A DNA stretch of 64,000 bases from Candidatus Moranbacteria bacterium GW2011_GWC2_40_12 (GCA_000995965.1 LBYD01000002.1:270563-334562); one strand, 5' to 3'. Shown: positions 1,230-62,107, numbered from the stretch's first letter. The notes: generated from the letters alone by a model not told the origin. Program-made: numbers and translations.

Positions 1230-1325
1230 ATCCAAATTACAACTTTTTCTGTCTTCGTTAAAATTGGCTTGTTTGAGCCTTTTTTGTTTCTGGCGAATTT
1301 ATTTGTAACTTGTTAGAATTAACGC

Positions 1326-6546: not shown

Positions 6547-6570
6547 CAAAACACCCCGCGGGGTGTTTTT
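6547..6570 (+). terminator. Rho-independent terminator (aaaacaccccgcggggtgttttt)
   Basis: GC hairpin ccccgcgggg followed by T-run, just after stop of 5865-6518. Confidence 0.7.
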
Positions 6571-6593
6571 GCATGCAATAGCCCTTTCTGTAT

Positions 6594-6629
6594 CCTGGAA
6601 AAATGCCTTGTTTTGAGGCGTTTTTTGTT
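6594..6629 (+). repeat. Repeated terminator-like motif copy A (cctggaaaaatgccttgttttgaggcgttttttgtt)
   Basis: Near-identical to 7784-7822 and partially to 16937-16957; small hairpin gcct..aggc + T-run. Confidence 0.6.
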
Positions 6630-6734
6630 AAGTGCGGGCACTTGACAAAATAAATAAACCTTGCTATGAAGATACATTGTAATTTAACAATTTATACGCC
6701 AAATTAATCTTTAAATAAAGGAAGGAACACTACG

Positions 6735-7076
6735 ATGAGACTCGAGATGCGCGGTAATAATGTCCTGTTTTGTGTTCAAAGCCTGAAGAACAGCAATGAA
6801 CTGACCAGTACCATGAAATCAGGCGAGCTGGTTGTAACTGGAAATGCAACCCCTTTTGTGCTTCGAAAAATGTGGCAGGGAAAAATCGAGAACATGACGA
6901 GGGAATTTCAAACCTACATCTCCGTTATATCCTTTGAGCGGACCAGAAGTACGAGATTTACGAAGGCAGGATATGTAGGTCTCATGATCGGCAACAGCCA
7001 AGGCCAGATGTTGGTTTACATCAAGAAGGTCTTCCTTAAGGAGTTCTTCTCTGCAATCTGTATGGCGTCGGTATAA
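6735..7076 (+). CDS. Hypothetical small protein (113 aa), first of three-gene small-ORF cassette
   Basis: Strong SD AAGGAAGG 8 nt upstream of ATG; no known motif. Confidence 0.45.
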   Translation: MRLEMRGNNVLFCVQSLKNSNELTSTMKSGELVVTGNATPFVLRKMWQGKIENMTREFQTYISVISFERTRSTRFTKAGYVGLMIGNSQGQMLVYIKKVFLKEFFSAICMASV

Positions 7077-7115
7077 AATAAACCAAGAAGTTAAAGCGGG
7101 GGAGGAGGACGTCGT

Positions 7116-7331
7116 ATGAAAAAAGTTGTTCTTACGTGCAAACCCGGCTATGGCTTTGGGGCTAATATGGGTCCGAAAATTTGTGCGCGCGGGTACTTTG
7201 TTCGCCAAGATGACGAAGATGTCATTGAGGTGGAATCCATTGAAAGGGGGGACCGCCTGGAGATCCTCTTCACCCCTGAGCTCATTCAATCATTGGAAGA
7301 AAGAGGGGTGATTGTGACCGTAGACCCTTGA
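7116..7331 (+). CDS. Hypothetical small protein (71 aa)
   Basis: Strong SD GGGGGAGGAGG upstream; acidic C-terminal half; no known motif. Confidence 0.45.
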   Translation: MKKVVLTCKPGYGFGANMGPKICARGYFVRQDDEDVIEVESIERGDRLEILFTPELIQSLEERGVIVTVDP

Positions 7332-7359
7332 AGCATTTTCAGGAAAAGGAGATGATTTT

Positions 7360-7635
7360 ATGAAGTGCGACTTCTGTAATAAAGATATACCTGAAGGTGG
7401 TCCTTTTAAGGAGGGCGTCACTGTGGGAACTAACGAAGAAGCCGCGCTTTGTGATGGACCTTCTCTGGGAGAAGCTGTCCGTTCCCGTCTTATCGCAACT
7501 GGGTATGTTATACCCTTTAATCCTTCGCCTGAACAGATTACTGAGATTTCCAGTTTGGGACTCTGTGCCGTAGTGTATCAAAACCTGCAGGCGCTTCAGG
7601 GAAACATGGTCATCGTTAACAAGCGTACGCCCTAA
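7360..7635 (+). CDS. Hypothetical small protein (91 aa), N-terminal MKCDFC Cys pair (possible Zn-ribbon-like start)
   Basis: SD AAAAGGAG upstream; no confident family. Confidence 0.4.
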   Translation: MKCDFCNKDIPEGGPFKEGVTVGTNEEAALCDGPSLGEAVRSRLIATGYVIPFNPSPEQITEISSLGLCAVVYQNLQALQGNMVIVNKRTP

Positions 7636-7783
7636 AAATGGGGCAATGGCCAGGGGCCCATCAATGAATCACGATGGGCCTTCTTTTTTAACAACAAAAT
7701 TTACTGCAATAGCGACATATACTAGTCCATTTTTATAATTCCCCGAATGTTTGGTTTCTGACCCTCATATCATCTTTTTGTAG

Positions 7784-7822
7784 CCCGGAAAAATGCCTCA
7801 TTTCGAGGTGTTTTTTTGTTTG
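7784..7822 (+). repeat. Repeated terminator-like motif copy B (cccggaaaaatgcctcatttcgaggtgtttttttgtt)
   Basis: Shares ggaaaaatgcct...ttTgagg..gttttttgtt with 6594-6629; hairpin cctc/gagg + T-run. Confidence 0.6.
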
Positions 7823-7892
7823 ACTTCCTTATTCGTCCCACCTAATATTTAATTATATGGTAAAATTAAAGAACATAGATAAATGAATCCAT

Positions 7893-7948
7893 CCCAACAT
7901 TGAATGTTGGGGTGAAATGCTTGACAGAGGCCAAGATAGTGATATAGT
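7893..7948 (+). promoter_or_regulatory. Perfect palindrome cccaacattgaatgttggg followed by sigma70-like promoter TTGACA-16-TATAGT
   Basis: Inverted repeat 7893-7912; TTGACA 7921-7926, TATAGT 7943-7948; upstream of BRO-N gene at 8002. Confidence 0.45.
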
Positions 7949-8001: not shown

Positions 8002-8841
8002 ATGAAAAAAGAAGAGAGAATTGCCATTTTTGAAGGCAAAAAAATCCGCCGGCAGTGGGATGAAAAAGAAGAAAAATGGTATTTTTCGGTTGTTGATATT
8101 GTCCAATTGTTAATTCAGCAAGACAACTATCAAGTTGCCAGAAAATACTGGAATAAGCTCAAAGAAAGGCTTAATAAAGAGGGAAATGAGTCGGTGACAA
8201 ATTGTCACCAACTGAAATTTATGGCTAATGACGGCAAATATTACGCAACTGATGCAGCCGATACAGAGACTCTATTACGTCTTGTTCAATCGGTGCCTAG
8301 CCCCAAGGCCGAACCGATTAAGTTGTGGCTGGCGCGAGTGGGATATGAAAGGATAGAGGAAATAAACGACCCGGAAAAAGCCCTCAATCGTAGTCGCGCT
8401 TATTGGCAAAGAATGGGCCGGAGCCAGAAATGGATCCAGCAAAGAATGATGGGGCAGGGAATCAGGAACAAGCTGACGGATTATTGGAAAAATAATGAAG
8501 TCAAAGAGCGGGACGAATACGCTATTCTCACAAACATAATCCACGAGGAGTGGAGCGATTTATCAGTAAAGGAGCATAAAAATTTGAAAAAACTGGAAAG
8601 AGAAAATCTGCGCGACCATATGACAGACGCGGAATTGGTTTTTACAGCTCTTGCTGAACTCTCCACTCGCCAGATCGCCGAAACTATGGAAACCAAGGGC
8701 TTGGAAGAAAACAAAATCCCGGCCAAACGTGGCGGACAGGTTGCGAAAAACGCCAGACTTGAACTGGAACAAAAAACCGGAAAAAGAGTTGTGACAGATG
8801 AAAATTTGAAGTTACATTATATAAAAAAGATAAAATCTTGA
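8002..8841 (+). CDS. BRO-N domain protein (DinD / prophage antirepressor-like)
   Basis: 'IRRQWDEKEEKWYFSVVDIVQLL' matches Bro-N (KilA-N-like) domain; length ~279 aa as in DinD-like proteins. Confidence 0.6.
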   Translation: MKKEERIAIFEGKKIRRQWDEKEEKWYFSVVDIVQLLIQQDNYQVARKYWNKLKERLNKEGNESVTNCHQLKFMANDGKYYATDAADTETLLRLVQSVPSPKAEPIKLWLARVGYERIEEINDPEKALNRSRAYWQRMGRSQKWIQQRMMGQGIRNKLTDYWKNNEVKERDEYAILTNIIHEEWSDLSVKEHKNLKKLERENLRDHMTDAELVFTALAELSTRQIAETMETKGLEENKIPAKRGGQVAKNARLELEQKTGKRVVTDENLKLHYIKKIKS

Positions 8842-16701: not shown

Positions 16702-16887
16702 AACGATAGCCTAATAATTAGCTATCTTTATTTTTTCCGCCAAATCTGGCGGACAAAACAGCCTATCATGAGGAAAAAAATCTGTCAACAAAAAAATCCC
16801 GAAACAACAAAAAAGGCTTATAAAAAGCCAAATTAATCTATTTCTAAAGTCAAACCCGGAGGGAAAGACTAAATCTACACATATTTC

Positions 16888-16913
16888 AATTGTATCATAA
16901 TAACACGGCCGTC
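16888..16913. repeat. 26-bp direct repeat copy 1 (caattgtatcataataacacggccgtc)
   Basis: Matches 17497-17524 with 2 mismatches; together they bracket the 16928-17485 gene. Confidence 0.6.
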
Positions 16914-16927
16914 TTATTATGATACAA

Positions 16928-17485
16928 CTATCTTCTAAAAAAATGCCTTTTGAGGGCGGGTTCGCTGTCGATGTTTGTCGCGGTGACAACCCTAACATAA
17001 GGCTGGGCCGAATAAAGTGAGACAAGCTCCTGGATGGGCTTTTCAAATGGATGCGGAGAAACAAAAACGCTGTGCTGGAGTTTCAAAAATTTGAGCGTCC
17101 GCAAATGCTCGCGCAGAATATCGCGAAACAGCCGATTTTTCTCCGGAATGTCGAAAAGAACGAGCCGCCATTTTCCATCCCAGCGCTTCGGCCTTTTGAA
17201 ATTTATGGAGCTTCCGATGAGACTCAATATTTTCGCTTCCCGTTTGCCTCTTGTCGTCAGAACCAGTCTGAAAGATCCGTCAGGGAGCCTTTTTTCTTTA
17301 AGGAGTTTTTCATCGGAGAGACGGTGCAAAGAGCGGTTGAAATTCCGTTGGTCAATTTTTCTCCATTCTGACCGCATGAGGCGTAGTGTCCGGTAGTATT
17401 GCCAGGGAGATCGAGAAAAGCCGAGGGCAACACTGCCCATAAGAGCTATGAGTATCTTTTTTTGCACAGGTCCGAATTTATACAT
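16928..17485 (-). CDS. wHTH-like N-terminus fused to Cas2-like domain (PaaX-like architecture); solo, no CRISPR/cas1 nearby
   Basis: 'WRLVLFDIPEKNRLFRDILREHLRTLKFLKLQHSVFVSP...YVRVVTAT' resembles Cas2 core (Y/FDI..D..R.R....L...G.R.Q.SVF.C ... vRvy); N-terminal ~95 aa basic/helical. Confidence 0.5.
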   Translation of the reverse strand: MYKFGPVQKKILIALMGSVALGFSRSPWQYYRTLRLMRSEWRKIDQRNFNRSLHRLSDEKLLKEKRLPDGSFRLVLTTRGKREAKILSLIGSSINFKRPKRWDGKWRLVLFDIPEKNRLFRDILREHLRTLKFLKLQHSVFVSPHPFEKPIQELVSLYSAQPYVRVVTATNIDSEPALKRHFFRR

Positions 17486-17496
17486 GGTCCAATTTC

Positions 17497-17524
17497 CATT
17501 GTATCATAATTATACGGCCGTGGA
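17497..17524. repeat. 26-bp direct repeat copy 2 (ccattgtatcataattatacggccgtgg); contains minus-strand CCGTATAAT -10-like box ~25 nt upstream of ATG 17485
   Basis: See copy 1; a third partial inverted copy AATTATACGGCCGTGG at 61927-61942. Confidence 0.6.
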
Positions 17525-17653
17525 AAGATGATGCGTTGCGGGGTTCTGTAGGGGGAGGATCCTGAATGTGGAGGCTCCTGAAGTTGGACTTTAGGAATGA
17601 TTATCCCGCAGTTTTAAAATCTCTTCAACTGATTGATTATTATTATAACTCAT

Positions 17654-18137: not shown

Positions 18138-18659
18138 TCATTCATTGCCTAACTTTAACTCTTTTGCTCTATAATAAATTGCATCACCCGAAACGCCAAA
18201 GAATTTTGCCAACCTTGCCCTCTTCCATATATCTCCATCGGTTATAGAATTCCACTTATCGCGAAACAGTATCTTGGGCATCAAAAAAGCCGCCGCGAAT
18301 CTTTCACAGAATCTTTCTTCGCCCCAGGCAGAATAAATATCCCCAGTTGAGAAACCATACTTTAATCCCGAGTTTCTGATTATATGCGCAATTTCATGAC
18401 ATAAGGTGAATCTTTGCCTATATTCCGGTTCCTTGGAATTTATCCAGATTTGGAAAATATTTCTCGCAGGATCGAAATACTCAAGTCCCGATGGTTTGAA
18501 TTCTTTTGAATCGGTATGAGAAATTTTCACTCTTATTCCAAGATTCTCTTCTGTCCATTTAATCAAGGAAAATTCTGAAGGCATTTCCTCTTTTATGCCG
18601 TCGTAAATCGCTTTGGCAATATCTTCTGCATTTAGATTTATTCCTTCATATGATTTCAT
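18138..18659 (-). CDS. ImmA/IrrE-family metallopeptidase (DUF955/COG2856-like), HEXXH 'HEIAH'
   Basis: 'FTLCHEIAHIIRN' zinc-metallopeptidase motif; overlaps upstream XRE gene by 4 nt (ATGA). Confidence 0.7.
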   Translation of the reverse strand: MKSYEGINLNAEDIAKAIYDGIKEEMPSEFSLIKWTEENLGIRVKISHTDSKEFKPSGLEYFDPARNIFQIWINSKEPEYRQRFTLCHEIAHIIRNSGLKYGFSTGDIYSAWGEERFCERFAAAFLMPKILFRDKWNSITDGDIWKRARLAKFFGVSGDAIYYRAKELKLGNE

Positions 18660-18985
18660 ACTCGCTTTCCGAAATTATCGATTAAATCTTCAATTAACTT
18701 CACATCAATCTCATTTTTAATTTTGTATTTTTTCCGCAAATACATTCTTAGAGGAGATGGCTCATTCTGCTCAATGACATTAAGATTATCAAGTATCTCT
18801 TTGACTTTAATACCTAATCCTTGAGCAAGTTTTATGATTGAATGCAGGGAAATATTTTTTTTGTCAAAATCTCCTTTCTCAATACGCGAAATGAAGGCCT
18901 TTGATAAGCTTGATCTTTCGGACAGTTCGTCGATCGTAAGAGATTTGTTATCCCTATATTTTTTAACAATATTACTTAGTTGCAT
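18656..18985 (-). CDS. XRE-family helix-turn-helix transcriptional regulator
   Basis: 'KSLTIDELSERSSLSKAFISRIEKGD' canonical Cro/C1 HTH; 109 aa. Confidence 0.75.
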   Translation of the reverse strand: MQLSNIVKKYRDNKSLTIDELSERSSLSKAFISRIEKGDFDKKNISLHSIIKLAQGLGIKVKEILDNLNVIEQNEPSPLRMYLRKKYKIKNEIDVKLIEDLIDNFGKRV

Positions 18986-19831: not shown

Positions 19832-22105
19832 ATGGGCAGACGCCGAAAAAAAGATAAAAACGGGGAAGAAAAAACAAACGGGCGGGGGAGGACGCCGAGA
19901 AATAAAGGATTGAGCGGTGACACAAAAAGAAGCATTGTCGCTGTTTTTCTCATTGCCTTGGCCATTCTCTCCATTTTCAGCCTTTTTGGAGGAGCGGGAA
20001 CGTTTGGTGTGTATTTCAACAAAATTTTGTCGCTGGCTTTTGGTATTGGGCGCTTTCTTCTTCCGATCCTGATGATTGCCGTCGGATTCATGTATTTCCG
20101 GCGGGATACCGAGGCTTATTATGTCTTTGTGGCAGCCGGATTCATTTTATTTTTCGCGAGTGTTCTCGGTATCGTCCATATTTTCAATCCACTTTCCGAA
20201 ATGCTAGCCGTCGCGAAAGGCGGTTCGGGCGGCGGATTTTTAGGCGCGGCAACCGCTTATCCGGCTCTCAAATTTTTCGGTTTTTGGGCGGGAGCCATTG
20301 TGCTGCTCTCGGTTGCCCTGGCATCTTTGCTGCTTGCGCTCAATGTTCCATTTCGGGCGCTATTGAAACCAATTGAATGGATGAAAGAAGAGGAAGAGGA
20401 GGCCGAAGATGAGAGAGGGGAGGAAGAGCCAAGAGTTTCTGTTGAAGAAAAAAAGTCTGCAGCGGTGAAAATAAGCGAGATACTAAAAAGAAAGCCGGAA
20501 AGAGCGGCAACAGAGAAAAAAATGCCAATTGTGGAAAGACAAAGCGGTCCAATCGGATGGAAATTTCCCCCGCTTGATCTTCTGGAAAAAACAACTGGCA
20601 AGGCCAAGGCCGGCGATATCGAATCGACCGCAAAAGTAATTCAGGAAACATTCAAGAATTTCGGGATCGAAGTCGAAATCGGCGACATCAGTGTCGGACC
20701 GTCGGTGACACAGTATTGTTTCAAACCAGCAGCCGGAATCAAGCTTTCAAAAATAACGGGACTGAATAATAATCTTTCTCTGGCATTGGCCGCGCATCCA
20801 ATCCGTATTGAAGCGCCTATTCCTGGAAAATCTCTTATCGGAATTGAGGTGCCCAACAAGGTTTCGACAATGGTTCGGCTTCGGAATATCATCGAAAGTT
20901 CTGAGTTCGCGGAAAGGAAAACGAATCTCACTTTGGCGCTTGGGCAGGACGTTGCCGGAAATTATATTCTTGGCGATCTCACGGAAATGCCCCATCTCAT
21001 GATTGCAGGTGCGACCGGGACCGGGAAAAGCGTCTGCATCAACACGCTCATCACGTCACTGCTTTACCAAAATTCGCCTGACGATTTGAAGCTGATTTTG
21101 ATTGACCCGAAACGGGTAGAGCTGACAGCGTTCAACGGCATTCCGCATCTTCTCACCCCGACCGTGGTGGATAACGGAAAAGTTGCCAATTCCCTGAAGT
21201 GGGCGATCGGCGAAATGGAAAGGCGCTACAAGATGCTTCAAGAGGCGAGTTCGAGGGATATTTTTTCTTACAACAGCAAGATAAAAGAAGGGCAAACGAA
21301 AAAAATAGTAGACGAGGAGACAGGTGAGGTCGTTGGCGAGGAAGAAGTGAAAAAACTGCCATATATCGTCATCATCATTGACGAATTGGCTGACATTATG
21401 GCTAGTCATTCCAAGGAAGTGGAAGCGGCCATTGTGCGTTTGGCCCAGATGGCGCGAGCGGTGGGTATCCACCTGGTTGTCTCCACACAAAGACCGTCTG
21501 TTGAGGTTTTGACTGGTCTCATCAAGGCGAACATTACGACGAGAATCGCATTCCAAGTGGCGACGCAAATTGATTCGCGGACCATTCTTGATATGGCCGG
21601 AGCGGACAAACTTCTTGGGAATGGGGATATGCTTTTCCTTTCTGCCCGTTCGCCAAAACCAAAAAGGATTCAAGGAGTTTTTGTTTCCGAATCGGAAGTG
21701 AAACGGGTTGTGAAATCAATCAAATCCCAGCTTAAAGAAGAAGTAGAATACAACGAAGAGATTGTTGCGCCGCAGCGGGTAAGTCTGGAAGGGAAAATGA
21801 CAGGGGCAGGTTCTTTGAGCGGAGACGATGAAGGCGATGAACTCTATGAAGAAGCCAAAGATACTGTTTTGAAATCCGGAAAAGCCTCGGCGTCACTTCT
21901 CCAGCGCCGGCTTCGGGTAGGATACGCCCGGGCGGCAAGACTTTTGGATATTCTGGAGGCCAACGGCATTATTGGGCAGGCGGATGGCTCGAAAGCCAGA
22001 GAAATATTGGTTGATAACGGGAACGGATCGAAGCCGGGACAGGAAGAACCCCAGTATGAGGATGATTTTTCAGACCAAAAAGCGAGAGACCGTTGGCAAA
22101 TGTGA
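19832..22105 (+). CDS. ftsK: DNA translocase FtsK/SpoIIIE
   Basis: N-terminal TM segments, Walker A 'GATGTGKSV', 'IIIDELADIM', 'VSTQRPSVEV', C-terminal gamma domain 'SLLQRRLRVGYARAARLLDILE'. Confidence 0.95.
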   Translation: MGRRRKKDKNGEEKTNGRGRTPRNKGLSGDTKRSIVAVFLIALAILSIFSLFGGAGTFGVYFNKILSLAFGIGRFLLPILMIAVGFMYFRRDTEAYYVFVAAGFILFFASVLGIVHIFNPLSEMLAVAKGGSGGGFLGAATAYPALKFFGFWAGAIVLLSVALASLLLALNVPFRALLKPIEWMKEEEEEAEDERGEEEPRVSVEEKKSAAVKISEILKRKPERAATEKKMPIVERQSGPIGWKFPPLDLLEKTTGKAKAGDIESTAKVIQETFKNFGIEVEIGDISVGPSVTQYCFKPAAGIKLSKITGLNNNLSLALAAHPIRIEAPIPGKSLIGIEVPNKVSTMVRLRNIIESSEFAERKTNLTLALGQDVAGNYILGDLTEMPHLMIAGATGTGKSVCINTLITSLLYQNSPDDLKLILIDPKRVELTAFNGIPHLLTPTVVDNGKVANSLKWAIGEMERRYKMLQEASSRDIFSYNSKIKEGQTKKIVDEETGEVVGEEEVKKLPYIVIIIDELADIMASHSKEVEAAIVRLAQMARAVGIHLVVSTQRPSVEVLTGLIKANITTRIAFQVATQIDSRTILDMAGADKLLGNGDMLFLSARSPKPKRIQGVFVSESEVKRVVKSIKSQLKEEVEYNEEIVAPQRVSLEGKMTGAGSLSGDDEGDELYEEAKDTVLKSGKASASLLQRRLRVGYARAARLLDILEANGIIGQADGSKAREILVDNGNGSKPGQEEPQYEDDFSDQKARDRWQM

Positions 22106-26983: not shown

Positions 26984-28033
26984 TCAGATTTTGAATTCGA
27001 TTACATCGCCATCTTTCACTATATAGTCCTTTCCTTCGGTGCGGAGAGTGCCGAGTTCACGGGCCTTGGCCCAGGAACCGGCTTCGAGAAGTTTTTGCCA
27101 ATTGATCACGTCCGCGCGGATGAATTTTTCTTCAAAATCGCTGTGAATGGCTCGGCCTGCCTCAGGAGCAGTCGAGTCATATTTCACGGTCCAGGCGCGG
27201 GTTTCATCCTCACCGGTCGTGAGAAAAGTTATCAGGTTCAAGACTTCGTATGATTTTAAAATAAGTTTGTCGAGATTTGATTTCATTCCAAGTTCCGCGG
27301 ATTCATTAGCTGACATTTGAGAAAGCTCTTCTTCGATTTTGATGTCTACAGCGACACTATTGACCCTAGAGCTGACCCTAGAGCTGAGCTCTAGGGTATT
27401 TTTTTCGTGGATATTTAGGACATAAAATATTGGTTTCCAAGTGAGGAGCTGCATATCTTTTACCAATGCCATATCTTCGGCAGATAATTTCAGGTCTCTC
27501 GCAAGTTTTCCTTCATCAAGAATAATTTTAATTTTCTTCGCTACCCCCAGTGCGGCGATCGCTTCTTTGTTTTGTCCCCGGGCCTCTTTCTCAAGTTTTA
27601 CAATGCGTTTACTAACAGTATCGAGGTCAGCGAGGATCAGTTCTGTATTGATAATCTCAATATCATTTTGCGGATCAATTTTGTCGTGGATATGAGTAAT
27701 ATTTTTATCTTCGAAGACGCGGACGACTTGGACAATCGCGTCTACTTCTCGGATATGCGCCAAAAATTTGTTTCCCAGTCCTTCGCCTTCGGCGGCGCCC
27801 TTGACGAGTCCGGCAATATCGACAAATTCAATAACCGTTGGCACAACTTTGGCCGACTTCGACATCTTCGCCAATTTCTCGAGCCTTTCATCCGGCACTT
27901 TCACAATCCCGACATTCGGCTCAATGGTGCAGAAAGGATAATTGGCGATATCCACCGGATTTTTGGTGAGGGCTTTGAAGAGGGTGGACTTTCCCACGTT
28001 CGGCAACCCCACGATTCCGACTTTTAGTGACAT
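26984..28033 (-). CDS. ychF: Ribosome-binding ATPase YchF (Obg-family), carrying an in-frame palindromic-repeat-encoded segment
   Basis: 'GIVGLPNVGKSTLFKALT', 'NYPFCTIEPN', C-terminal TGS 'EGKDYIVKDGDVIEFKI'. Confidence 0.93.
   Translation of the reverse strand: MSLKVGIVGLPNVGKSTLFKALTKNPVDIANYPFCTIEPNVGIVKVPDERLEKLAKMSKSAKVVPTVIEFVDIAGLVKGAAEGEGLGNKFLAHIREVDAIVQVVRVFEDKNITHIHDKIDPQNDIEIINTELILADLDTVSKRIVKLEKEARGQNKEAIAALGVAKKIKIILDEGKLARDLKLSAEDMALVKDMQLLTWKPIFYVLNIHEKNTLELSSRVSSRVNSVAVDIKIEEELSQMSANESAELGMKSNLDKLILKSYEVLNLITFLTTGEDETRAWTVKYDSTAPEAGRAIHSDFEEKFIRADVINWQKLLEAGSWAKARELGTLRTEGKDYIVKDGDVIEFKI
27362..27397. repeat. Palindromic repeat element, 1.5 copies (gaccctagagct + gaccctagagctgagctctagggt) inside ychF coding sequence
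   Basis: Perfect palindrome ccctagagct-g-agctctaggg; identical core at 38627-38650; translated in ychF as LELSSRVSSRV. Confidence 0.8.
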
Positions 28034-36669: not shown

Positions 36670-36694
36670 TCCTTGGCGGCGGAATTGGCAGACT
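36670..36694 (+). repeat. Partial duplicate of tRNA-Leu 5' end (ccttggcggcggaattggcagac)
   Basis: 23/24 nt identical to the 5' acceptor/D-arm of the tRNA at 36706; lies 12 nt upstream. Confidence 0.7.
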
Positions 36695-36705
36695 AAATTT
36701 TACAA

Positions 36706-36789
36706 GCCTTGGTGGCGGAATTGGCAGACGCACTGGCTTCAGGAGCCAGCGAGAGCAATCTCATGGGAGTTCGACTCTCCCCCAAGGCA
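36706..36789 (+). tRNA. tRNA-Leu (anticodon CAG), long variable arm
   Basis: Acceptor GCCTTGG/CCAAGGC, anticodon stem CTGGC/GCCAG loop TTCAGGA, long extra arm, T-arm GGGAG-TTCGACT-CTCCC. Confidence 0.8.
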
Positions 36790-38587: not shown

Positions 38588-38917
38588 TGAAAAGTCCGGC
38601 TCTGGGGAATTGCGGCAACTTAACTTTACCCTAGAGCTGAGCTCTAGGGTCAGTGAACCTTTTTTGTCCGTAAAGCGAAGCAAATAAGCGCATTCAGGAA
38701 TTTCAGTAAGATGCTTTCCTCTGAGCACCAGGCGCAGGCGCATTCCTTTGTGCCACAGATCAGGCAGAATGTTGTGAAAAACCATTACCGCTCCGCGTAA
38801 TTCCGTAATCAGGAGAGTGCTGACTTTAGCGGGAAAATTGCTAAGAGTATCCTGTTCCAGATCACTGAGCTGGTAACGAGAAACTTCCCAGTCGTATATA
38901 TCTTCGAAAAAAGCCAT
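38465..38917 (-). CDS. Hypothetical protein; ORF reads through the palindromic element (LTLELSSRVKL) into antisense of rnj 3' end - C-terminal ~75 aa doubtful
   Basis: N-terminal ~90 aa (38651-38917) in clean intergenic space; remainder overlaps repeat and rnj. Confidence 0.35.
   Translation of the reverse strand: MAFFEDIYDWEVSRYQLSDLEQDTLSNFPAKVSTLLITELRGAVMVFHNILPDLWHKGMRLRLVLRGKHLTEIPECAYLLRFTDKKGSLTLELSSRVKLSCRNSPEPDFSLHLNHHWQDHRAALGFRIEKLADRVADIVFDIGPVDFLVF
38627..38650. repeat. Palindromic repeat element (accctagagctgagctctagggt) + T-run, second locus
   Basis: Identical core to 27374-27397; followed by ttttttg so likely acts as terminator after rnj. Confidence 0.8.
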
Positions 38918-61861: not shown

Positions 61862-62107
61862 TGTATTTAGAATACTTGAAAATGCATTATTATACAATAT
61901 TACAATATTTATTTTCGGAAATAAATACAATTTAGCATTTTCCCACGGCCGTATAATTTTGCTAATTTTGTGCGTTCTCAATAAAAAACAGGCCGGTCCG
62001 CGACGGAAACGTGTCCGTCGGGATCAGCCTGGGTATAATCCCTTCTAACATTTAATGTTAGGATAATATTATATCAATATTTTCGATATTCTTGCATAAG
62101 AAAACCC

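What the first reader, a model, noticed from the sequence alone, without database searches (positions are those of the whole stretch)
6594..7822. Three strong-RBS small ORFs cassette bracketed by a repeated 35-nt terminator-like motif
ORFs of 113, 71 and 91 aa (6735-7635) each have unusually strong Shine-Dalgarno sequences (AAGGAAGG, GGGGGAGGAGG, AAAAGGAG) and slightly elevated GC, and no recognisable family. The block is bounded by two copies of ggaaaaatgcct-N-ttYgagg-gttttttgtt (6594-6629, 7784-7822). A third partial copy (16937-16957) overlaps the 3' end of the Cas2-like gene. Copy A directly follows another terminator. The repeat could be a cassette boundary or recombination site (attC-like) or a family-specific terminator. 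The small proteins could be a novel complex, e.g. a small-protein toxin/immunity or peptide-modification-free RiPP-like set.
Basis: seen in the sequence. Interest (0 to 1): 0.6.

Follow-up and report, generated by a model that had tools for sequence, protein, structure and literature searches.

The report
Conserved hairpin element bounding gene cassettes
In a Moranbacteria (candidate phyla radiation) genome, a self-contained three-gene operon of unknown function is flanked by two copies of a short conserved hairpin element that in related genomes also marks the borders of unrelated lineage-specific genes; it most likely acts as a terminator or insulator at accessory-gene module boundaries, and a role as a recombination site is not shown.

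Summary
The repeat is real and non-random. There are two direct copies, 6584-6626 and 7774-7816, 84% identical. No other copy exists in the 64 kb window.

It is a 12-14 bp hairpin that folds well only on the gene-sense strand. Copy B also carries a 33-nt conserved "BOX" (7738-7770). Copy A looks like copy B minus about 58 nt.

The same hairpin, with or without BOX, occurs at 1-3 copies in at least four other Moranbacteria/Patescibacteria MAGs at non-homologous loci. It is 88-100% identical there, while shared genes are only 68-77% identical. It follows tRNA genes or unrelated ORFan genes and usually sits just upstream of a TTGACA promoter. Two genomes with the same backbone (ComM...YabE-KsgA) hold different cargo between element copies.

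ORF1-3 form a unit with promoter, strong ribosome-binding sites and terminator. ORF1 belongs to an uncharacterised family of about 47 clusters; its model is confident (pLDDT 95.5) but has no structural neighbour. ORF3 has one homologue with a different partner gene. ORF2 is strain-specific.

I found no integrase, no attC features, no phage or plasmid match, and no toxin, RiPP or defence family hit. The claimed third copy at 16937-16957 is not supported.

Verdict: a new lineage-specific module-boundary element, most likely a terminator/insulator. Cassette recombination remains possible but unproven.

The parts
6547..6570 (+). Canonical intrinsic terminator of the upstream 217-aa gene (AAAACACCCCGCGGGGTGTTTTT)
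   Evidence: Read. RNA fold gives -15.4 kcal/mol.
6574..6626 (+). Element copy A: TGCAATAGC, then CTTTCTGTATCCTGG, then the hairpin (6597-6626). The BOX is absent.
   Evidence: Covariance model score 60.9 bits. Fold gives -12.7 kcal/mol on the sense strand and -5.6 on the antisense strand.
6642..6670 (+). Promoter-like site TTGACA-17-TATGAA, 15 nt after hairpin A
   Evidence: Read from the sequence. The same hairpin-then-TTGACA arrangement occurs in L010, L022, L023, L039 and L041.
6735..7076 (+). ORF1, 113 aa. Member of an uncharacterised family of small beta-rich proteins.
7116..7331 (+). ORF2, 71 aa. Strain-specific ORFan with the strongest Shine-Dalgarno site in the window.
   Evidence: Only a 99%-identical same-strain hit. 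SD duplex energy -12.9 kcal/mol. Coding status is inferred, not shown.
7360..7635 (+). ORF3, 91 aa, with CxxC at the N-terminus. One 68%-identical homologue is known.
   Evidence: In L010 it follows a different 92-aa membrane ORF and keeps a homologous terminator.
7653..7689 (+). Intrinsic terminator of the ORF1-3 operon
   Evidence: Fold gives -20.6 kcal/mol followed by a U-run. A homologous terminator follows the ORF3 homologue in L010.
7705..7816 (+). Element copy B: TGCAATAGC, BOX (7738-7770, ATTCCCCGAATGTTTGGTTTCTGACCCTCATAT), CTTTTTGTAGCCCGG, then the hairpin (7787-7816).
   Evidence: Covariance model score 67 bits. BOX nhmmer E-value 2.3e-9. Aligned with L021, L022, L023 and L039 copies.
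7820..7948 (+). Promoter-like sites of the next module: TTGACT-17-TAATAT at 7820-7848 and TTGACA-16-TATAGT at 7921-7948
8002..8841 (+). Next module: Bro-N domain protein (PADLOC candidate PDC-S13, phrog_15286)

Best explanation
The repeat is a lineage-specific intergenic module-boundary element of Moranbacteria/Patescibacteria.

Its core is a 30-nt hairpin: an A5/U5-extended stem around a GCCU core, followed by a T-run. The hairpin folds on the gene-sense strand and acts as an intrinsic terminator or insulator at the junction between independently transcribed accessory gene modules. The next module's TTGACA promoter usually follows within about 0-20 nt. Many copies also carry a 33-nt BOX 15-25 nt upstream of the hairpin; its function is unknown.

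ORF1-3 is one such module. It is an autonomous unit of promoter, three strongly translated small ORFs and its own terminator. It sits in a stretch of accessory genes between TerC/217-aa and rpoB, next to a second module (Bro-N/PDC-S13).

The two direct copies are the boundary elements of two neighbouring modules. They are also the expected footprint, and a possible substrate, of module gain by recombination between element copies.

Shown: the element's existence, its strand-biased structure, its conservation above background, its positions relative to genes, tRNAs and promoters, and cargo differences between genomes.

Inferred: termination or insulation activity, and any role in recombination.

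The function of the three proteins is unknown. The best guess is a small cytoplasmic accessory set, built mosaically from a conserved ORF1-type protein plus exchangeable partners.
For: Non-random repeat, only two copies in the window:
-.

Hairpin structure and strand bias:
- 97% of cells are paired across 10 copies from 6 genomes, with three near-invariant G.U pairs.
- Sense-strand folding energy is -10 to -15.6 kcal/mol; antisense is -1.8 to -7.8.
- Diverged copies keep a hairpin with a different stem core (L021 3499-3546).

Position:
- In L027 and L055 it is the only terminator-like structure directly after a tRNA gene, in the tRNA's orientation.
- All copies read so far share the orientation of the flanking genes.

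Lineage restriction:
- In the scan of 185,579 species genomes, 5 of the 18 pattern hits are in four Moranbacteria/Patescibacteria MAGs. Each MAG holds 1-3 copies once near-pattern and decayed copies are counted.

Conservation above background:
- The hairpin is 88-95% identical between L022 and L041, while their shared genes are 68-77% identical and the flanks cannot be aligned.
- The BOX core is 25/25 identical between L021 and L023.

Module-boundary behaviour:
- L041: HP | 4 small strong-RBS ORFs | terminator | BOX-HP | 467-aa ORFan | BOX-HP* | YabE.
- L022, same backbone: HP | 219-aa ORFan | terminator | BOX-HP* | YabE.
- L036: tRNAs | HP | 427-aa | BOX-HP* ... HP | 377+595-aa | BOX-HP*.
- L039: gene | terminator | BOX-HP | promoter | 435-aa ORFan.
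- The cargo proteins are mutually unrelated and have no family hits.

A TTGACA -35 box follows the hairpin in winA, winB, L010, L022, L023, L039 and L041.
Against: - The GC core of the stem is only 5-6 bp, and the U-run is largely paired with the A-run. As a terminator it would be weak to moderate.
- Both window copies sit behind a stronger canonical terminator, so they would be redundant as simple terminators.
- Structure alone does not explain why the stem sequence and the BOX are conserved.
- Covariation is minimal: 9 of 13 pairs never vary, and the shuffles are not exceeded.
- No expression data are available.
- No BOX-hairpin follows the Bro-N/90-aa module before rpoB, so not every module is bounded by the element.
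Confidence: 0.5

Rival explanations
1. The BOX-hairpin element is a dedicated site-specific recombination site. It would be analogous to integron attC/VCR sites or to Xer/dif-like sites used by integrase-less elements. ORF1-3 would then be a cassette inserted by a recombinase encoded elsewhere in the genome.
For: - Direct repeats bracket cargo in the window, L041 and L036.
- L022 and L041 carry different cargo on the same backbone between element copies, and homology resumes exactly at the BOX start.
- The cassettes encode no recombinase of their own.
- The hairpin has roughly 11-nt arms with a 5-7 nt centre.
- Sequence conservation, not just structural conservation, holds across genera.
Against: - No tyrosine or serine recombinase lies within +/-10 kb of the window locus or in L036/L041. 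The only hit is an unrelated rve-type IS.
- There is no conserved RYYYAAC/GTTRRRY core. GTTAAGT occurs after copy A only.
- Three G.U pairs make the double-stranded palindrome imperfect and strand-biased, as expected for an RNA structure.
- Some copies directly follow tRNA genes as their sole terminator.
- The cassettes have their own promoters and terminators.
- No empty-site versus filled-site pair was found for the window locus. More than 24 near-clonal contigs all carry the cassette.
Confidence: 0.17
2. BOX plus hairpin is a small regulatory RNA or a conserved 3'-UTR element present in several copies. The BOX would be a seed or protein-binding segment and the hairpin its Rho-independent terminator.
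For: - In L021 copy 2 and L036 copy 3 the BOX begins 5-10 nt after the stop codon, so it would be transcribed as a 3' UTR ending at the hairpin.
- The hairpin is strand-specific.
- The BOX is more conserved than coding DNA.
- A -10-like hexamer (TGCAAT, TATAAT or CATAAT) lies 25-27 nt upstream of the BOX in winB, L021 and L039.
Against: - No convincing -35 box.
- No conserved secondary structure beyond the hairpin. The z-score for the whole region is -1.5.
- No Rfam hit.
- Many copies lack the BOX altogether: winA, L022-1, L027, L030 and L055.
- No expression data.
Confidence: 0.15
3. There is nothing special here. The two copies are the residue of a local duplication, or are generic terminators that happen to look alike.
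For: - Only two copies occur in 64 kb.
- Both lie in intergenic terminator-like positions.
- The A-tract/U-tract hairpin is a common terminator design.
- Some non-CPR pattern hits are ordinary terminators (L015, L017, L024).
Against: - No matches occurred in shuffles.
- The same 30-49 nt sequence scores 54-65 bits at non-homologous loci of other MAGs, whose genes are only 68-77% identical.
- The BOX co-occurs with the hairpin in six copies.
- Hits are strongly enriched in Moranbacteria: 5 of 18 among 185,579 species genomes.
Confidence: 0.06

Closest known systems
Modular intergenic repeat elements with hairpins (E. coli REP/BIME, pneumococcal BOX A-B-C and RUP, Neisseria Correia elements). 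This comparison rests on general knowledge, not on a tool result.
   Same: - Short conserved intergenic sequence with an imperfect palindrome.
- Modular make-up: the hairpin occurs with or without the BOX, and decayed copies exist.
- Located at gene ends, where it can act as a terminator or affect neighbouring expression.
   Different: - Very low copy number: 2 per 64 kb and 1-3 per MAG, against tens to hundreds.
- Always in the sense orientation.
- No terminal inverted repeats and no target-site duplications.
- No RAYT or transposase associated.
- Specifically flanks ORFan modules.
Integron gene cassettes with attC sites, especially the sequence-conserved VCRs of Vibrio superintegrons. This comparison rests on general knowledge.
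   Same: - Same-orientation repeats separate unrelated, mostly ORFan genes.
- Repeat sequence is conserved.
- Cargo differs between genomes at the same locus.
   Different: - No IntI or attI nearby.
- The hairpin is 30 nt, against 57-141 nt for attC.
- No R''/L''-L'/R' architecture and no conserved GTTRRRY.
- The cassettes have their own promoters and terminators.
- Only 2-3 sites per array.
Phage 'morons': a promoter-gene-terminator unit inserted between conserved genes. This comparison rests on general knowledge.
   Same: ORF1-3 has its own sigma-70-like promoter, strong ribosome-binding sites and a terminator. It sits between unrelated genes and is built mosaically: ORF1 and ORF3 each occur elsewhere with other partners.
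   Different: - There is no prophage context.
- No ORF1, ORF3, hairpin or BOX hit was found in IMG/VR, INPHARED or PLSDB.
- Morons are not bounded by a shared repeat.
Intrinsic (Rho-independent) terminators of the A-tract/U-tract, 'bidirectional' type
   Same: - A-run, then a GC-containing stem-loop, then a U-run.
- Located after genes and tRNAs.
   Different: - The sequence itself is conserved across loci and genera.
- It folds poorly on the antisense strand, so it is not truly bidirectional.
- It is often redundant with a stronger terminator upstream.
- It is accompanied by the BOX.

Membership tests
Integron cassette / attC | Integron integrase (IntI, tyrosine recombinase) and attI adjacent to the array | tested here: not met
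   Precomputed Pfam annotations for +/-10 kb of the window locus show no integrase. None is present in L041 or L036 either; the only hit there is an rve-type IS. The rest of the genome was not examined, and attC clusters without an integrase do exist.
Integron cassette / attC | attC architecture: R''(RYYYAAC)-L''...L'-R'(GTTRRRY), a 57-141 nt imperfect hairpin with extrahelical bases | tested here: not met
   The hairpin is 30 nt with a 12-14 bp near-perfect stem. GTTRRRY follows copy A only (GTTAAGT) and not copy B or the copies in other MAGs.
Integron cassette / attC | Arrays of same-orientation sites separating mostly promoterless ORFs | tested here: inconclusive
   Same-orientation sites do separate unrelated ORFs, with 2-3 sites per locus. 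However, the cargo units carry their own promoter-like sites.
Intrinsic terminator | Stem-loop with a GC-containing stem followed by a U-run, on the sense strand at the 3' end of a transcription unit | tested here: met
   The stem is 12-14 bp, including 3-4 G-C pairs, and is followed by T6-7. It folds on the sense strand only. It lies directly after tRNA-Trp in L027 and after a tRNA in L055. The GC core is short.
Intrinsic terminator | Actual termination of transcription | not testable with these tools
   This needs Term-seq, RNA-seq or a reporter assay.
REP/BIME/MITE-type interspersed repeats | High copy number dispersed through the genome | tested here: not met
   A covariance model run with filters off finds 2 copies in 64 kb, and the next hit scores 21 bits. 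There are 1-2 exact-pattern hits per MAG in the scan of 185,579 species genomes.
REP/BIME/MITE-type interspersed repeats | Terminal inverted repeats with target-site duplication (MITE), or an associated RAYT (REP) | tested here: not met
   The copies are direct, not inverted. No target-site duplication or transposase is associated, apart from an unrelated IS inserted next to one copy.
Xer/dif-type site (IMEX integration) | A single chromosomal 28-nt site made of 11-nt XerC/XerD arms and a 6-8 nt centre, duplicated only around the integrated element | tested here: inconclusive
   The arm and centre geometry is loosely compatible. However, the sites occur at several unlinked loci per genome, including after tRNAs and near ComM/YabE. 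The arms are A/T runs typical of terminators. No dif consensus for CPR bacteria was available for comparison.
Toxin-antitoxin / toxin-immunity or RiPP gene set | Recognisable toxin, antitoxin, immunity, precursor or maturation domains | tested here: not met
Phage moron | An autonomous promoter-ORF-terminator unit within a prophage or phage genome | tested here: inconclusive
   The promoter-like and terminator-like sites are present. No phage context or viral homologues were found. The neighbouring Bro-N gene is phage-associated by family only.

The most novel reading that the evidence does not exclude
The BOX-hairpin element is the recombination site of an undescribed cassette system in CPR bacteria. 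The system would rely on a recombinase encoded elsewhere, in an integron-like or Xer-exploiting manner. It would insert and exchange self-expressed ORFan modules such as ORF1-3 at terminator positions next to tRNAs and housekeeping genes. That would explain part of the large ORFan turnover seen in these tiny genomes.
Probability: 0.12. Interest if true: 0.8.

Novelty: new member of a known kind. Interest (0 to 1): 0.42.

Why it matters
CPR/Patescibacteria genomes are small, yet they are full of lineage-specific genes whose origin and turnover are poorly understood.

A conserved, low-copy boundary element that recurs between unrelated ORFan modules in several Moranbacteria gives a concrete sequence handle for finding such modules. 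It also allows tests of whether they are insulated transcription units, and whether the element mediates their gain and loss.

ORF1 defines a small protein family of about 47 clusters. Its predicted fold is confident and has no solved structural neighbour.

If the element turns out to be only a terminator, the finding is a modest annotation: a lineage-specific terminator family plus three hypothetical proteins.

Tried and rejected
- Rfam found nothing at the locus or in L041, at gathering and at E<=10 thresholds.
- tRNA or att-fragment origin of the repeat: ARAGORN finds nothing at the element, and the BOX is not T-arm-like.
- Structured RNA beyond the hairpin: no consensus structure, and the z-score is -1.5. 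A candidate BOX pairing seen in L021 and L023 is not shared by the other copies.
- A reverse-strand mini-ORF across the BOX (MRVRTLYFGE-like) was rejected because it has no Shine-Dalgarno site and its ends vary.
- Viral origin: no hairpin, ORF1 or ORF3 hit in IMG/VR. The 26 BOX-core hits there are chance matches in GC-rich phages. No match in INPHARED or PLSDB.
- Presence/absence polymorphism at the window locus: every contig found is near-clonal (0-4 SNPs) and carries the cassette.
- Diversity-generating retroelement, CRISPR and DNA-uptake-sequence ideas were dropped. The copy differences are not adenine-specific, there is no array, and copy number is far too low.
- The first covariance-model structure was mis-registered by one column. 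This was corrected for the pair counts. Model R1 itself was built with the shifted structure, so its scores rest mainly on sequence.
- Literature searches for integrons, terminators or islands in CPR/Moranbacteria returned nothing relevant.

Full report
**Source and observation**

The window comes from Candidatus Moranbacteria bacterium GW2011_GWC1_45_18, a CPR/Patescibacteria MAG. The exact ORF1 and ORF3 proteins are UX02_C0001G0115 and G0113.

The repeat is real. The pattern GGAAAAATGCCTYNTTTYGAGGYGTTTTTT occurs at 6597-6626 and 7787-7816 and in none of 100 shuffles. Gapless similarity covers 43 nt at 84% identity.

Reading the sequence shows that both copies also share TGCAATAGC further upstream (6574-6582 and 7705-7713). 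Copy A therefore looks like copy B with about 58 nt deleted.

A covariance model run over all 64 kb with filters off finds only these two copies, at 67 and 61 bits. The next hit scores 21 bits and lies inside rpoC. With about 61 genes in the window, this is not a generic terminator.

The alleged third copy at 16937-16957 is a 17-21 nt resemblance. It lies inside the coding 3' end of a PaaX-family regulator, whose PF20803 domain is the "Cas2-like" central domain. It has no T-run and no model hit.

Each copy lies behind another, stronger terminator (6547-6570 and 7653-7689).

The three ORFs exist. Their Shine-Dalgarno sites are strong, and ORF2's is the strongest in the window. ORF1 and ORF3 are in the top 16-18% under a conservative comparison. 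Their GC content is unremarkable.

**Anatomy of the element**

The core is a hairpin with a 12-14 bp stem: A5/U5 arms around a UGCCUY/RAGGYG core and a 3-5 nt loop.

Across ten copies from six genomes, 97% of cells are paired. One pair shows C-G/U-G/U-A variation, and three pairs are near-invariant G.U. As a result the hairpin folds at -10 to -15.6 kcal/mol on the gene-sense strand but only -1.8 to -7.8 on the antisense strand. That asymmetry argues for an RNA-level, sense-strand structure rather than a symmetric dsDNA protein site.

Covariation proper is weak because the sequence is so conserved.

Copy B and five copies elsewhere carry a second conserved block 15-25 nt upstream of the hairpin. 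This "BOX" reads ATTCCCCGAA-N6-GKTTCTGACC-N3-ATAT (window 7738-7770).

I found no Rfam family, tRNA similarity or consistent extra RNA structure for the element.

**Distribution**

An exact-pattern scan of 185,579 species genomes gave 18 hits. Five lie in four Moranbacteria/Patescibacteria MAGs. A near-pattern second copy raises L023 to two. The remaining hits look like ordinary or chance terminators.

The metagenome scan added further contigs of these lineages, plus L039 and L055.

Nothing was found in IMG/VR, INPHARED or PLSDB.

Copy number is therefore low, at 1-3 per genome. Conservation is nonetheless high. The hairpin is 88-95% identical between L022 and L041, whose shared genes are 68-77% identical at the DNA level and whose flanking intergenic DNA cannot be aligned. 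The BOX core is 25/25 identical between L021 and L023.

**What the element flanks**

- L027 and L055: the hairpin directly follows a tRNA gene, in the tRNA's orientation.
- L041: TrpR-like gene | hairpin | (an rve-type IS inserted later) | TTGACA promoter | four small strong-RBS ORFs | terminator | BOX-hairpin | 467-aa ORFan | BOX plus a diverged hairpin | YabE-like | KsgA.
- L022: the backbone is the same (ComM...YabE-KsgA), but the content is PaaX-like gene | hairpin | promoter | 219-aa ORFan | terminator | BOX plus a decayed hairpin | YabE. Homology to L041 resumes exactly at the BOX.
- L036/L023: tRNA-Met-Met-Asp | terminator | hairpin | 427-aa ORFan | terminator | BOX plus a decayed hairpin ... 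hairpin | 377- and 595-aa ORFans | BOX plus a decayed hairpin.
- L039: gene | terminator | BOX-hairpin | TTGACA promoter | 435-aa ORFan.

The cargo proteins are mutually unrelated and hit no Pfam or PADLOC family.

In nearly every case a consensus TTGACA -35 box follows the hairpin within 0-20 nt.

The window follows the same plan: 217-aa gene | terminator | hairpin A | TTGACA-17-TATGAA | ORF1-3 | terminator | BOX-hairpin B | promoters | Bro-N gene. The Bro-N gene matches PADLOC candidate PDC-S13 at 5e-118 and phrog_15286.

**The three proteins**

ORF1 has five homologue clusters at 53-64% identity in Moranbacteria-like contigs. By profile search it belongs to a family of 47 clusters at the 50% identity level, nearly all 105-125 aa.

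In the close relatives it lies downstream of tRNA-Glu, in a variable stretch between DedA (VTT) and sigma-70/TsaD. There it is followed by different, mutually unrelated small ORFs: an 88-aa membrane protein, a 126-aa protein, a 104-aa protein, or another one in L011. More distant members occur alone next to housekeeping genes.

ORF3 has one 68%-identical homologue. That homologue lies behind a different 92-aa membrane ORF, keeps a homologous terminator, and is preceded by a hairpin variant plus a TTGACA promoter.

ORF2 is found only in this strain. Its coding status rests on its ribosome-binding site and its position in the operon.

All strain-level contigs are near-clonal and carry the cassette, so they give neither polymorphism nor dN/dS information.

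**Interpretation**

The best-supported reading is a lineage-specific module-boundary element. A sense-strand terminator/insulator hairpin, often accompanied by a BOX of unknown function, sits at the junction of independently transcribed accessory modules. ORF1-3 is one such module, self-contained and mosaic in composition.

Direct copies on either side of the cargo, together with different cargo on an identical backbone, are what recombination between element copies would produce. That step is inferred, not shown.

A dedicated attC- or Xer-like site is not excluded. It lacks an integrase, lacks the attC core architecture, and conflicts with the strand-biased G.U pairs and with the copies that terminate tRNA genes.

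A small RNA or 3'-UTR role for BOX-hairpin is also open.

A trivial duplication or a generic terminator is largely excluded by the cross-genome conservation and the lineage enrichment.

**Verdict**

The attC, toxin/immunity and RiPP ideas have no support.

I searched the available literature and found no description of this element. It appears to be a new family within the known kind of hairpin-containing intergenic repeats, and it is of moderate interest.

Noticed in passing
window 16883-16927, 17492-17532, 61923-61963: Palindromic repeats of about 40 nt (TTGTATCATAATAACACGGCCGTCTTATTATGATACAA) flank both ends of the PaaX-family regulator gene at 16931-17485(-). A third, weaker copy lies 44 kb away. 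The PaaX-like gene in L022 has analogous palindromes, so these are probably operators.
   Followed up: partly
window 8002-8841: The Bro-N domain protein matches PADLOC candidate defence family PDC-S13 (5e-118) and phrog_15286 (6e-91). In strain contig L012 the gene is split into two ORFs.
   Followed up: partly
window 36671-36693 vs 36707-36729: The 5' end of tRNA-Leu(CAG) is duplicated 36 nt upstream of the gene (23 nt, 96% identical). This may be a remnant of a rearrangement or integration at the tRNA.
   Followed up: no
window 27372-27398 and 38627-38653: The same 27-nt palindrome, CTGACCCTAGAGCTGAGCTCTAGGGTA, occurs twice, 11 kb apart, in opposite orientation.
   Followed up: no
window 18141-18985 (-) and 19832-22105 (+): An HTH_3 gene paired with a Peptidase_M78 (ImmA/IrrE-like) gene, as is typical of mobile-element regulation, sits next to a full-length FtsK gene.
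   Followed up: no
L041 2343-2398 (compare L021 712-763): A (GGAA)n microsatellite lies inside the second ORF of the L041 cassette. It has 14 units in L041 and 13 in L021, L034, L045 and L048. The difference shifts the reading frame, which resembles phase variation.
   Followed up: partly
L041 about 415-1700: An rve-type (DDE) IS with inverted ends of about 50 nt is inserted 30 nt downstream of hairpin 1. This explains why the two hairpin copies of MAG RIFOXYB1_FULL_43_19 lie on separate scaffolds (L030 and L021).
   Followed up: partly
L001 7634-7900: tRNA-Glu is followed by direct and inverted fragments of its own 3' end immediately upstream of the ORF1 homologue. In L003, L005 and L007 the same tRNA-Glu to ORF1 interval holds 0.6-7 kb of variable genes, which marks it as an integration hotspot.
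   Followed up: partly
window 1245-1287: A terminator after the gene downstream of tRNA-Gly resembles the hairpin (63% identity). It has a swapped stem core (GGCT...AGCC instead of GCCT...AGGC) and the same TTGTTTGA loop. The covariance model does not detect it.
   Followed up: partly
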